A stretch of 64,000 nucleotides of DNA from Escherichia coli (GTDB lineage: Bacteria > Pseudomonadota > Gammaproteobacteria > Enterobacterales > Enterobacteriaceae): assembly GCF_003790525.1 (NCBI RefSeq), contig NZ_CP033636.1; one strand, given 5' to 3'. The stretch's first letter is position 1, and every line of letters begins with the position of its first letter. The notes under the pieces are model-generated. The model made no database searches and was not told the origin of the DNA. It saw only the letters and a program-made list of their open reading frames with translations. Positions 31,360 through 33,586 of the stretch are shown piece after piece. The position numbers and the translations under genes are program-made.

Positions 31360-32685
31360 TCATTTCTCAGCCAGGCGCCTGCATTGCTGCCTCATTCCAT
31401 CAAAAATACTTTCCGCAAGCTGCTGGGGGAACTGGTCCGGAAGAAGCCCGCTAACACGTTCAATGACACCTGGGGTTCTGGCGATGATTTCCTCTATCAT
31501 CGCCTCTGTCTGCTGTTTACTCAGGCCGGTTATCTCACCATGCCTGATCCAGTGGCGTCGTTGTATTCGATATATCTGGTAATAGTTGCTACTGCCACGT
31601 ACGGCCATCGCCAATTTGCACTTCTGCCAGGATATCTGATTGTTCCCATGACCGATCACCGGCCATGCCGACAACACATCATAGTTTGGTGTAAGGTGAT
31701 AACGTCCCTGTGGCCCAATAGAAATACTGAAATTTTTAGCGTGGCCATCTGTTGCGGCCATCATCCAGAAAATTATCTGCGTCATAAAAAACTGCGCTTT
31801 GTCACGCTCAGCACGGTCTGAATTACTCAGAACCTCCATAATTTCCGATATACCTGGCCCGCCGTCCGCCTGATATTTTCGTAATGGCGAAACGCCCAGG
31901 GCCTGACACATATCCTCCTGGGGTAAACGAATGATCCATTGTCCGTCTCCTGACCATTTTCGGTCAAAACGTTCTACCACCAGCGCTTTCTGATCTTCAA
32001 AGTGAGCAATCTGCGTTCTTGCCACGGGGAGCCCGTACTGGCCGAGAAGTACCGAGCAGAGCCATTCATTTTCAACCGACGAGCTCATGTCGGCTTTCAT
32101 GTTCCCCACAAGTCCGAGCGGTAGCTTGAATATATGCGTCGTTGGTGTATTACCCTCCGGCATACACCACCGATCTTCATGCCACAGTAGGGCTGTTTTC
32201 TCCTGAGCACCGGCAATAGATAAACGTAAGTCGTCGTTATCTTCTGGCCTGCCCGGTAGCAATGTCTCCGTGGTATTACGCAAAGTTGCCGCAATTTCTG
32301 ATTCAGTAAGCGGGTGATACTTCACGGAATATAAATCAGTGGGTTCATCTCCGTCATGAAGCAGCTGTATCGCGCCCACGCAGTCTTTTCCCAGCTCCGT
32401 CAGCAGATCAAAAGGCTCCAGGCTATCGGCCTTGTAACGCATTGCCAGACGTCTGCGTATGCCTTCGCTGTCCGGCAGTAAATTATCAAAATAGTCACGT
32501 ACCACATTTCCACGCCAGACCTGGTTCCCGGGAGTAAAAGGAAGGGACAATGACAGCGGCCTTCCCTGTTCGTCAGCAACCCATTCAGGAAGGTATTCTA
32601 AGCTGTCTACCCCTTTGCTTTTTTCCCAGTACCCGACTTTGATGCCGTTCATCCAAATTACCAGACGTTGCTGTTTCCGGCTCAT
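31360..32685 (-). CDS. hipA: type II toxin HipA (Ser/Thr kinase family)
   Basis: 441-aa translation with HipA-like length and organisation, immediately downstream of an XRE-type HTH gene. Confidence 0.8.
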   Translation of the reverse strand: MSRKQQRLVIWMNGIKVGYWEKSKGVDSLEYLPEWVADEQGRPLSLSLPFTPGNQVWRGNVVRDYFDNLLPDSEGIRRRLAMRYKADSLEPFDLLTELGKDCVGAIQLLHDGDEPTDLYSVKYHPLTESEIAATLRNTTETLLPGRPEDNDDLRLSIAGAQEKTALLWHEDRWCMPEGNTPTTHIFKLPLGLVGNMKADMSSSVENEWLCSVLLGQYGLPVARTQIAHFEDQKALVVERFDRKWSGDGQWIIRLPQEDMCQALGVSPLRKYQADGGPGISEIMEVLSNSDRAERDKAQFFMTQIIFWMMAATDGHAKNFSISIGPQGRYHLTPNYDVLSAWPVIGHGNNQISWQKCKLAMAVRGSSNYYQIYRIQRRHWIRHGEITGLSKQQTEAMIEEIIARTPGVIERVSGLLPDQFPQQLAESIFDGMRQQCRRLAEK

Positions 32686-32689
32686 ATCG

Positions 32690-32986
32690 TTACCAATCCT
32701 CCTGTCGTGCAGGTGAGTTTGATTTAAGCATTTCTTCCGTCTGCTTCCTCTCTGAAGAGGTGGTTGCCGAGGAGAAGCTGATTTTTACGCCCAGGATGGA
32801 AAACACCTTGAATAGCCGTTCAATGCTCGCACTGGCAGGGTTGGCTTCCAGACGTGAGTATGTCTGTTGAGTGACGCCTAACCTTTCGGACAGGTCTTTT
32901 TGCGTCAGGCCATTCGCCTTGCGAAAACCAATGAGCAAGGGACGCAGCTGGTTGAGCGTGTTTAACGGGTAATCATTATTGATCAT
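32690..32986 (-). CDS. hipB: antitoxin/repressor HipB (XRE-family HTH)
   Basis: 98-aa translation with HTH (LTQKDLSERLGVTQQTYSRLE); ends 4 bp before the hipA start. Confidence 0.75.
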   Translation of the reverse strand: MINNDYPLNTLNQLRPLLIGFRKANGLTQKDLSERLGVTQQTYSRLEANPASASIERLFKVFSILGVKISFSSATTSSERKQTEEMLKSNSPARQEDW

Positions 32987-33044
32987 AAGCTGGCCTCAGT
33001 AGTTTCCTCTGATACACCTTGCAGGCTGTTTCCTAAACATACAC

Positions 33045-33112
33045 CCTAAAAGCTGTAATATCAAATTAACAGCCTAAAAGCTGTTAAATAGGGCGTACAA
33101 CTTTTAGGCTGT
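33045..33112. promoter_or_regulatory. putative hipBA operator/promoter: repeated CCTAAAAGCTGT motif and a perfect 12-bp inverted repeat
   Basis: CCTAAAAGCTGT at 33045-33056 and 33073-33084; ACAGCCTAAAAG (33069-33080) is the exact reverse complement of CTTTTAGGCTGT (33101-33112); 60-125 bp upstream of hipB. Confidence 0.5.
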
Positions 33113-33586
33113 TACTATGTGGCAGCATAAATCTTGTTAGCGATACAACTTTATTGTCTCATCGCTCCTCTTTGCAACCAGCTACATACGATCATAAGTG
33201 ACACAACATTAATATGAAGCGACATTCACCAAATTAACCTTCGTCATTTCAGATAGTTAGCTTACTTGCATGTCCTCATCCCATGAAGGGGAGGGCCTAC
33301 CCCTGGCATCGAGCAAAACTGACCACCCTGCCCTTATTAAGACCCCACATGCGGCAATGGTGCCCTGTCCACGCCGCCCGCGATTTTTGAGGAAATGGGA
33401 AGAAAATAAAAAGAAAACAAAAAGTTATCGGCTGAAGTATCGGCGCAGATCGGGAATCAGGCGAAGCCTGACAGCACGTTGGGGCCTGGCAGGGGGCTTG
33501 AGGGATGAGGACATGCAACTCTGATAGCCTTCCCGCCACGGGGTCGGTTAAATTCGTATCCGGCCGGTGCAATTCCAACGGCCGCG

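What the first reader, a model, noticed from the sequence alone, without database searches (positions are those of the whole stretch)
31360..33130. Plasmid-borne hipBA with a non-canonical operator architecture
hipB-hipA are intact and overlapping-adjacent. Upstream of hipB there is a perfect 12-bp inverted repeat (ACAGCCTAAAAG / CTTTTAGGCTGT) and two direct CCTAAAAGCTGT copies rather than the chromosomal E. coli TATCC-N8-GGATA operators. This suggests a distinct HipB specificity, relevant to plasmid maintenance or persistence.
Basis: partly seen in the sequence, partly recalled or inferred. Interest (0 to 1): 0.35.

Follow-up and report, generated by a model that had tools for sequence, protein, structure and literature searches.

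The report
IncHI2 hipBA with its own operators
This is the well-known hipBA toxin-antitoxin module of IncHI2 resistance plasmids, and the repeats upstream of it are four evenly spaced palindromic sites that its HipB repressor very probably binds: the usual HipBA layout with a different DNA sequence, so ordinary in kind but a useful, untested operator definition.

Summary
The "12-bp inverted repeat plus two direct repeats" are three of FOUR 16-bp palindromes, ACAnC-N6-GnTGT. They lie at 33014-29, 33041-56, 33069-84 and 33097-112, spaced 27, 28 and 28 bp, and occur nowhere else in the 64 kb.

A sigma-70-like promoter is embedded in the array. The -35 lies between O3 and O2, O2 fills the spacer, and O1 sits at the expected transcription start.

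The same motif, site number, spacing and distance to the start codon recur upstream of hipB homologues in about 50 unrelated genomes, from Enterobacterales to Cupriavidus. Changes in the HipB recognition helix track changes in the half-site.

HipA is 41% identical to K-12 HipA and keeps all catalytic and high-persister residues checked. HipB models as a HipB fold with a disordered tail ending in the conserved Trp.

So HipB specificity is distinct from K-12 (no TATCC-N8-GGATA), but the architecture is canonical: four operators over the promoter at about 28-bp pitch. Shewanella HipB (GTGTA-N6-TACAC, four copies) already shows that operator sequence varies.

The module is a backbone gene pair of IncHI2 plasmids (1186 PLSDB records). 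DNA binding and plasmid stabilisation remain untested for this module. Interest is modest.

The parts
31360..32685 (-). hipA: Ser/Thr kinase toxin, 441 aa
   Evidence: ORF. Pfam Couple_hipA (E 3.7e-21) plus HipA_C (E 3.6e-51). PDB E. coli HipA E 1e-100. It is 41% identical to K-12 HipA, and the equivalents of S150, K181, D309, D332, G22, P86, D88 and D291 are all conserved.
32690..32986 (-). hipB: Xre/HTH antitoxin and repressor, 98 aa. Predicted recognition helix is residues 40-48 (QQTYSRLEA). The C-terminal tail is disordered and ends in Trp98.
   Evidence: ORF. Pfam HTH_3 E 4.5e-15. K-12 HipB E 1.4e-6, 32% identity. The AF2 core has block-mean pLDDT of 77-85 over residues 11-70, and the tail (74-98) is below 50. 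The top Foldseek PDB hits are all HipB structures (8ezt, 3dnv, 4z5h, 4yg1, 5k98), with TM about 0.8 and rmsd about 1.8 A.
32994..32997 (-). Shine-Dalgarno-like GAGG, 7 nt upstream of the hipB ATG
   Evidence: Read directly from the sequence.
33014..33029 (.). O1 (promoter-proximal operator): ACAGCCTGCAAGGTGT in the hipB direction. It spans -43 to -28 from the ATG and covers the expected transcription start.
   Evidence: The same position (42-43 nt from the ATG) recurs in most homologous loci.
33036..33041 (-). -10-like hexamer TATGTT, sharing its first base with the last base of O2
   Evidence: Promoter scan. A TATTGT/TAATGT/TATGTT hexamer is conserved at the same offset in homologous loci.
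33041..33056 (.). O2: ACAGCTTTTAGGGTGT, occupying the 17-bp spacer between the -35 and -10 hexamers
33059..33064 (-). -35-like hexamer TTGATA, between O3 and O2
   Evidence: Promoter scan. TTGATA/TTGATT/TTGCAT is conserved at the same offset.
33069..33084 (.). O3: ACAGCTTTTAGGCTGT, the one perfect palindrome in its half-sites
   Evidence: The consensus scan also flags it as terminator-like.
33097..33112 (.). O4 (distal operator): ACAGCCTAAAAGTTGT
33113..33133 (.). Upstream edge of the conserved hipBA cassette. Similarity to the second IncHI2 lineage ends about 147 nt upstream of the ATG.
   Evidence: Comparison of the window with p48880_mcr (L058).

Best explanation
This is a type II HipBA toxin-antitoxin operon of the IncHI2 plasmid backbone.

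**Proposed mechanism.** HipB dimers bind four 16-bp palindromic operators, alone or as HipA2HipB2. The family consensus is TTACAGCyTATArGCTGTAa. The plasmid's sites are ACAnC-N6-GnTGT, spaced 27-28 bp centre-to-centre across the hipBA promoter. O2 fills the -35/-10 spacer and O1 covers the transcription start, so occupancy shuts off transcription (autorepression).

**Recognition.** This HipB subfamily has a recognition helix (V-T-Q-Q-T-Y-S/A-R-L-E-A-N-P) that differs from K-12's (I-K-Q-A-T-I-S-N-F-E-N-N-P). It reads ACAGC half-sites 6 bp apart, where K-12 reads TATCC half-sites 8 bp apart.

**Consequence for the host.** The plasmid promoter should therefore be insulated from the chromosomal K-12-type HipB present in most E. 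coli hosts.

**After plasmid loss.** Proteolysis of HipB, whose disordered tail ends in the conserved Trp, would free HipA kinase to arrest growth (post-segregational killing).

**Shown here:**
- gene identities
- the four sites and their statistics
- promoter overlap, by consensus
- conservation across about 50 loci
- helix/half-site covariation

**Inferred:**
- actual HipB binding and repression
- HipA-mediated cooperativity between neighbouring operators
- insulation from the chromosomal module
- plasmid stabilisation
For: **The four sites**
- All four sites lie within 100 bp and there are none elsewhere in the 64 kb. Chance expectation is 0.79.
- The promoter hexamers are interleaved with them.

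**Conservation in the homologous loci (55 from genomes of other species, scored with the window locus as a 56th)**
- There are 153 ACAG-N8-CTGT sites in 12.3 kb upstream of hipB, against 82 in the other 275 kb, a 42-fold enrichment.
- Spacing is 27 bp in 74 cases and 28 bp in 24.
- 27 of 56 loci have exactly four sites.
- The offsets of -35, O2, -10 and O1, and the 42-43 nt from O1 to the ATG, are conserved.

**Independence from context.** The motif travels with hipB into different settings: IncHI2, IncFIB and IncHI1A plasmids and chromosomes.

**Pattern of substitutions.** Between the two IncHI2 lineages, changes fall in operator centres and inter-operator spacers, not in half-sites.

**Covariation**
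- QQ[T]Y goes with ACAG (220 of 302 half-sites). QQ[S]Y goes with ACAA (40 of 44).
- YA[R]L goes with C at position 5 (225 of 260). YA[Q]L shows no preference.

**Proteins**
- The HipB fold and its disordered Trp-ended tail are supported.
- HipA catalytic and hipA7-type residues are conserved.

**K-12 comparison.** K-12 has the same four-operator plan, with 28-bp pairs (PMC3376134).

**Literature**
- A different plasmid-borne hipBA stabilises its plasmid (PMC11487325).
- IncHI2 hipAB is routinely listed as a maintenance module and is transcribed.
Against: - There is no binding, footprint, transcription-start or stability data for this module. None was found in the searchable literature.
- The covariation classes coincide with clades (Cupriavidus, Paraburkholderia), so the Fisher p-values overstate independence.
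- The promoter call rests on a 9-of-12 consensus match only.
- In S. oneidensis, HipB binds adjacent operators without cooperativity and the complex geometry differs from K-12. HipA bridging therefore cannot be assumed.
- The plasmid's operator centres (CTAAAA, TTTTAG, CTGCAA) depart from the family's TATA-centred consensus.
Confidence: 0.85

Rival explanations
1. The sites are HipB operators, but HipB binds them independently, as reported for S. oneidensis. There would be no HipA-HipA bridging between neighbours, and the 27-28 bp pitch would only reflect promoter geometry.
For: - ITC on S. oneidensis double-operator DNA showed no cooperativity (PMC4150777).
- This family shares the N6 spacer with Shewanella rather than K-12's N8.
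Against: - The 27/28-bp pitch is kept almost invariantly across distant genera. It also holds for the distal O3-O4 pair, which does not overlap the promoter.
- It equals the 28-bp pitch of the K-12 operator pairs.
- The HipA residues whose mutation gives high persistence in K-12 (G22, P86, D88, D291) are conserved. These include positions in the N-terminal subdomain involved in dimerisation during DNA binding (PMC6581861).
- Loci that have lost hipA carry fewer sites, on average about 2 against about 3.75.
Confidence: 0.3
2. The palindromes act mainly as RNA or DNA hairpins, for example an intrinsic terminator that insulates hipBA from upstream transcription, rather than as protein-binding sites.
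For: The consensus scan flags O3 plus its flanks (33087-33066, minus strand) as terminator-like: a 9-pair stem, 4-nt loop and T-rich tail.
Against: - Only 3 of the 9 stem pairs are G-C.
- The scan's terminator count is at chance level: 2 found, 2.7 expected.
- Conservation is of the outer half-site bases with free centres, at a fixed 27-28 bp pitch, which is the pattern of dimer-binding DNA sites.
- O1, O2 and O4 have imperfect stems.
- The half-sites covary with HipB residues.
- No Rfam family matches.
Confidence: 0.04
3. The repeats belong to another plasmid function (iterons, a partition site, or the binding site of a different IncHI2 regulator) and merely lie next to hipB.
For: Large plasmids do carry repeated binding sites, and the region upstream of hipB is a roughly 470-bp non-coding stretch.
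Against: - The array follows hipB into chromosomes and into IncFIB and IncHI1A plasmids with unrelated neighbours.
- Similarity between the IncHI2 lineages begins just upstream of O4.
- No further copy of the motif exists in the 64-kb window.
Confidence: 0.02
4. Degenerate canonical K-12-type operators are hidden in the region, and the chromosomal HipB also controls this promoter.
For: HipB here is a true HipB homologue, and most E. coli hosts carry K-12-type hipBA.
Against: - No TATCC-N8-GGATA match within 2 mismatches lies between 32987 and 33770.
- The recognition helix differs at 6 of its 9 aligned positions from K-12's (KQATISNFE against TQQTYSRLE).
Confidence: 0.03

Closest known systems
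E. coli K-12 chromosomal hipBA and its O1-O4 operators (TATCC-N8-GGATA)
   Same: - Gene order is hipB then hipA.
- The HipA domain pair and catalytic residues match.
- HipB has the same fold and a disordered tail ending in Trp.
- Four palindromic operators span the promoter, with a -10 hexamer between O2 and O1.
- Neighbouring operators are about 28 bp apart centre-to-centre.
   Different: - The half-site is ACAGC, not TATCC.
- The inner spacer is 6 bp, not 8 bp.
- Gaps are even at 11/12/12 bp, where K-12 has 10/21/10.
- The genes are separated by 4 nt instead of overlapping by 1 nt.
- Protein identity is only 41% (HipA) and 32% (HipB).
- No IHF-like site lies just upstream.
- It is plasmid-borne.
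Shewanella oneidensis MR-1 HipBA (operators GTGTA-N6-TACAC, four copies; PMC4150777)
   Same: - It is a published example of a HipB with non-TATCC operators.
- It has a 6-bp inner spacer, four copies, and a short gap (3 bp) between hipB and hipA.
   Different: - The half-site sequence is different.
- Its operators are 34 bp apart, against 11-12 bp here, and one lies inside hipB.
- HipA matches S. oneidensis HipA far more weakly than K-12 HipA (E 2.8e-21 against 1e-100). HipB matches S. oneidensis HipB only at E 0.055.
Plasmid-borne HipBA of Klebsiella michiganensis pPSKoxy4_2 (IncA/C; PMC11487325)
   Same: It is a hipBA on a large conjugative enterobacterial plasmid. It has been shown experimentally to be toxic, to be neutralised by HipB expressed from its native promoter, and to stabilise the plasmid.
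   Different: - It is on a different plasmid group and is a different HipBA variant (43.9% and 38.6% identity to K-12).
- Its operators were not analysed.
- I could not retrieve its sequence to test for the motif.

Membership tests
HipBA type II toxin-antitoxin module | Toxin with a HipA N-terminal (Couple_hipA) domain plus a HipA_C kinase domain | tested here: met
   Pfam E 3.7e-21 and 3.6e-51, both above the gathering scores. PDB HipA E 1e-100.
HipBA type II toxin-antitoxin module | Kinase catalytic and autophosphorylation residues present (K-12 S150, K181, D309, D332) | tested here: met
   They align to S156, K187, D313 and D336 of the window protein. The residue roles come from established HipA literature.
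HipBA type II toxin-antitoxin module | Upstream Xre-type HTH antitoxin with a HipB fold and a disordered C-terminus ending in Trp | tested here: met
   HTH_3. The best Foldseek hits are HipB structures with TM about 0.8. The tail (74-98) has pLDDT below 50. W98 is invariant in 17 homologues. The conserved terminal Trp is described in PMC3376134.
HipBA type II toxin-antitoxin module | hipB immediately upstream of hipA in one operon | tested here: met
   There is a 4-nt gap on the same strand. Co-transcription itself was not tested.
HipBA type II toxin-antitoxin module | Several palindromic operators overlapping the promoter | tested here: met
   Four sites interleave with the -35 and -10 hexamers, and this is conserved in homologues. 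Binding itself was not tested.
HipBA type II toxin-antitoxin module | HipA is toxic, HipB neutralises it, and HipB represses the operon | not testable with these tools
   This needs expression, EMSA and reporter experiments.
K-12-type HipB operator class | TATCC-N8-GGATA operator sequence | tested here: not met
   No match within 2 mismatches lies near hipB. The same pattern finds all four K-12 operators, each a perfect match.
Shewanella-type HipB operator class | GTGTA-N6-TACAC operators separated by 34 bp | tested here: not met
   The sites read ACAnC-N6-GnTGT with 11-12 bp gaps. Only the N6 spacer is shared.
IncHI2 plasmid backbone | The locus is conserved in plasmids typed IncHI2 | tested here: met
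   The locus is 100% identical in pHNGD64-NDM, typed IncHI2A/MOBH. It is found in 1186 PLSDB records. In E. coli, 286 of 290 places are on plasmids.

The most novel reading that the evidence does not exclude
The ACAGC-N6-GCTGT HipB subfamily may form one continuous repression complex. The four operators (five in one Burkholderia sp. locus, L033) are uniformly pitched at 27-28 bp. HipA2HipB2 units on every neighbouring pair could therefore be bridged by HipA-HipA contacts, unlike K-12's two separated pairs.

Its private operator code, and presumably private HipA-HipB pairing, would make the IncHI2 module orthogonal to the chromosomal hipBA of its E. coli and Salmonella hosts. That orthogonality would be what lets it work as an addiction system there.

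The orphan hipB-plus-operator loci with deleted hipA, seen in several Enterobacterales, would then act as anti-addiction genes against such plasmids.
Probability: 0.3. Interest if true: 0.45.

Novelty: new member of a known kind. Interest (0 to 1): 0.3.

Why it matters
IncHI2 plasmids are major carriers of mcr, NDM, oqxAB and other resistance genes. Their hipBA is routinely cited as a maintenance module but has not been characterised.

This work defines the operator (ACAGC-N6-GCTGT, four copies, 27-28 bp pitch) and a candidate recognition code:
- Thr/Ser at QQxY pairs with G/A at half-site position 4.
- Arg/Gln at YAxL pairs with C or any base at position 5.

Both give precise probes for EMSA, reporter and curing experiments. 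They also provide a third natural specificity class for comparing how HipB proteins read DNA.

The same definition frames a testable question: are plasmid and chromosomal hipBA modules insulated from each other in the same cell?

It does not change the picture of how HipBA systems work.

Tried and rejected
- **Canonical K-12 operators in disguise.** A search at up to 2 mismatches found none near hipB.
- **IHF site upstream, as in K-12.** No WATCAANNNNTTR match at 1 mismatch or fewer lies between 33113 and 33400, and window-wide counts are at chance.
- **Known RNA element in 30000-35000.** No Rfam match at E 0.1 or better.
- **Terminator reading of O3.** Rejected; see the rival explanations.
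- **Primary K-12 structural papers.** I tried to read Schumacher 2009 (PMC2764309) and 2015 (PMC7502270) for HipB-DNA contacts and O1-O2 geometry. Neither is held. Statements about HipA dimerisation on DNA therefore rest on the secondary account in PMC6581861 and on my own knowledge.
- **Link to the experimentally tested plasmid HipBA.** I tried to test for the operator class in K. michiganensis pPSKoxy4_2 through its near-identical relative CP104451.1. That record is not in the collection.
- **Literature on this operator.** Searches for a described ACAGC/GCTGT HipB operator, or for functional work on IncHI2 hipBA, found only annotation-level mentions.
- **K-12 promoter comparison.** The K-12 -35 assignment is ambiguous in the raw sequence: TTGACT lies 23 nt from TATAAT. 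I therefore limited that comparison to the -10 position.
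Full report
**1. What is in the sequence**

On the minus strand, a 98-aa ORF (32690-32986) is followed after a 4-nt gap by a 441-aa ORF (31360-32685).
- The large protein has the Couple_hipA and HipA_C domains. It matches E. coli HipA structures at E 1e-100.
- The small protein is an HTH_3/Xre protein whose best PDB sequence matches are HipB.

The genes are adjacent but do not overlap.

In plus-strand coordinates the copies are:

| Site | Coordinates | Sequence |
|---|---|---|
| O1 (proximal) | 33014-29 | ACACCTTGCAGGCTGT |
| O2 | 33041-56 | ACACCCTAAAAGCTGT |
| O3 | 33069-84 | ACAGCCTAAAAGCTGT |
| O4 (distal) | 33097-112 | ACAACTTTTAGGCTGT |

Start-to-start spacing is 27, 28 and 28 bp. 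The "direct repeats" are O2 and O3. O1 was missed.

The pattern ACANC-N6-GSTGT occurs only at these four places in 64 kb, where 0.79 matches are expected from shuffles. No TATCC-N8-GGATA site lies near hipB, even at two mismatches.

**2. Relation to the promoter**

The consensus scan finds TTGATA (33064-33059), a 17-bp spacer, and TATGTT (33041-33036) on the hipB strand.
- The -35 hexamer lies between O3 and O2.
- O2 fills the spacer.
- The -10 hexamer shares one base with O2.
- O1 begins 6 nt downstream of the -10, at the expected start site.

A GAGG Shine-Dalgarno sequence lies 7 nt before the ATG. This is a consensus-level prediction. No transcription-start data were available.

**3. Where it comes from**

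The 2-kb locus is 100% identical in many large conjugative plasmids typed IncHI2A/MOBH, for example pHNGD64-NDM.
- It is present in 1186 PLSDB plasmids from Escherichia, Salmonella, Enterobacter, Klebsiella and others.
- In complete E. coli genomes it occurs in 285 of 5426 genomes, and 286 of 290 places are on plasmids.
- Papers on IncHI2 plasmids list hipAB as a backbone maintenance module (PMC6617520; PMC6306219). They also report it as transcribed (PMC13183382).
- I found no functional or operator study of it.

**4. Comparative test of the operator hypothesis**

HipB has hundreds of homologues. Its helix-turn-helix is nearly invariant down to 67% overall identity, as are the terminal SPARxExW residues.

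I fetched 55 loci from one-genome-per-species contigs and scanned 220 bp upstream of each hipB, adding the window locus as a 56th.
- The motif recurs at the same positions in nearly all Enterobacterales loci: about -125, -98, -70 and -43 from the ATG. It also recurs in Cupriavidus, Ralstonia and Paraburkholderia.
- Sites matching ACAG-N8-CTGT with at most 1 mismatch number 153 in 12.3 kb of upstream DNA. The remaining 275 kb holds 82, so the enrichment is 42-fold.
- Neighbour spacing is 27 bp in 74 cases and 28 bp in 24.
- 27 of 56 loci have exactly four sites.
- The family consensus is TTACAGCyTATArGCTGTAa, about 20 bp including flanks.

The interleaved promoter elements keep their offsets: TTGATA/TTGCAT sits 3 bp before O2, and TATTGT/TAATGT/TATGTT sits at its end. 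O1 lies 42-43 nt from the ATG in most loci.

The array also accompanies hipB in a second IncHI2 lineage and in an IncFIB Cronobacter plasmid. In reduced form (two sites), it accompanies an orphan hipB on an IncHI1A plasmid.

Between the two IncHI2 lineages, the substitutions fall in operator centres and spacers, not in half-sites. Similarity stops just upstream of O4.

**5. Protein-DNA covariation**

Three recognition-helix variants go with three half-site variants.

| Helix variant | Clade | Half-site |
|---|---|---|
| QQ**T**YA**R**LEANP | Enterobacterales | ACAGC |
| QQ**S**YARLEANP | most Cupriavidus and Ralstonia | ACAAC |
| QQTYA**Q**LEAKP | Paraburkholderia, Trinickia | ACAG, then any base |

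- Position 4 is G in 220 of 302 half-sites with Thr, and A in 40 of 44 with Ser.
- Position 5 is C in 225 of 260 half-sites with Arg, and shows no preference with Gln.

The classes coincide with clades, so the nominal p-values are inflated. Even so, the direction of the changes fits direct readout by residues of the predicted recognition helix. An Arg lost together with a C:G pair is one example. That helix is residues 40-48 in the AlphaFold model.

The model's core superposes on solved HipB structures (K-12 3dnv/4yg1/4z5h/5k98, Legionella, HipBST, Shewanella) with TM about 0.8 and rmsd about 1.8 A. The tail (74-98) is predicted disordered. This matches the Lon-targeted unstructured C-terminus and "universally conserved" terminal Trp of K-12 HipB (PMC3376134).

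**6. Comparison with what is known**

In K-12 the four TATCC-N8-GGATA operators start 28, 39 and 28 bp apart, with gaps of 10, 21 and 10 bp. A TATAAT hexamer lies between O2 and O1 (gap figures also in PMC4150777).

The plasmid module therefore has the same plan: four dimer sites over the promoter at about 28-bp pitch. It differs in three ways:
- the half-site sequence
- a 6-bp instead of an 8-bp inner spacer
- even gaps of 11/12/12 bp

Aligned on the dyad, both operator types span about 20 bp. K-12 reads TTATCCn and this family reads tAACAGC per half, so they differ mainly at positions -7 to -4 from the centre.

Variation of this sort is already documented. S. oneidensis HipB uses GTGTA-N6-TACAC four times at 34-bp gaps, binds without cooperativity, and forms a differently shaped ternary complex.

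The finding is thus a third specificity class of a known system, not a new architecture.

**7. HipA**

HipA is 41% identical to K-12 HipA.
- It keeps the equivalents of S150, K181, D309 and D332. These are the autophosphorylation, ATP-binding, catalytic and Mg-binding residues; the roles come from established HipA literature.
- It also keeps G22, P86, D88 and D291, whose mutation gives high persistence in K-12 (hipA7 residues in PMC6581861).
- The HipA N-terminal subdomain is involved in dimerisation during DNA binding.

These facts, with the conserved 27-28 bp pitch, lead me to infer HipA-bridged cooperative repression. That inference is unproven, and the Shewanella precedent argues for caution.

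**8. Likely biology**

K-12-type hipBA is present at 80% coverage or more in 4567 of 5426 complete E. coli genomes. IncHI2-bearing E. coli therefore usually hold both modules. The different operator code predicts transcriptional insulation of the two.

Whether the antitoxins cross-neutralise is unknown.

A plasmid-borne hipBA of another type has been shown to be a potent stabilisation system (PMC11487325). This makes post-segregational killing the most likely role here, but it has not been tested for IncHI2.

**9. Verdict**

- Novelty is a new member of a known kind. The operator class appears undescribed in the searchable literature.
- Interest is modest at 0.3. The value lies in precise, testable operator and recognition-code predictions for a clinically widespread plasmid backbone.

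Noticed in passing
L002 (Klebsiella indica), L003, L005, L007, L015, L019, L026-L028, L031, L039; L059 (IncHI1A plasmid p1653-MDR): About a third (11 of 31) of the Enterobacterales genomic hipB homologues lack an intact hipA. Four keep only fragments (L002 retains HipA residues 1-35) and the others have none. L002 has a 93%-identical HipB and all four operators. Orphan loci carry fewer operator sites on average (about 2 against about 3.75). An IncHI1A plasmid has an orphan hipB with two sites beside Tn7-like genes. These could be decaying modules or anti-addiction antitoxins.
   Followed up: partly
window 32981-32989: The hipB start codon has shifted. The window reads ATG ATC AAT, where most homologues read CTT ATG AAT, so the ancestral ATG corresponds to the window's second codon (ATC). 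NCBI's annotation calls a 97-aa protein starting at that ATC. The ATG at 32986, with GAGG 7 nt upstream, looks like the real start.
   Followed up: partly
window ~33133: Similarity between the two IncHI2 lineages (the window against p48880_mcr, L058) ends about 147 nt upstream of the hipB ATG, just beyond O4. This marks the upstream edge of the hipBA cassette. Different sequence lies upstream in each lineage.
   Followed up: partly
window 33066-33087 (minus strand): Operator O3 with its flanks (TTAACAGCTTTTAGGCTGTTAA followed by TTTGATATTA) is flagged as an intrinsic-terminator-like hairpin. It might also damp read-through from upstream, but the scan's terminator count is at chance level.
   Followed up: no
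L033 (Burkholderia sp.) about -150 to -42 from hipB; other Paraburkholderia and Trinickia loci: One locus has five sites at a strict 27-bp pitch. In this clade only ACAG-N8-CTGT is kept, the operator centres are TATATA-like, and the HipB helix carries Gln and Lys where the plasmid HipB has Arg and Asn.
   Followed up: partly
window 29548-30270 and 30581-31299: An IS26 transposase ORF lies about 1 kb downstream of hipA, at the edge of the resistance region (cmlA1, aadA2 and intI1 in the identical plasmid pHNGD64-NDM). Two small hypothetical ORFs (68 and 136 aa) directly follow hipA on the same strand and are conserved in both IncHI2 lineages. Their relation to hipBA is unknown.
   Followed up: no
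window 33113-33586: A stretch of roughly 470 bp upstream of the operators has no annotated gene, no Rfam match and no IHF-like site. It contains a second promoter-like match (33218-33191, minus strand) and a short palindrome, AGCGAT-N16-ATCGCT, around 33139-33166.
   Followed up: no
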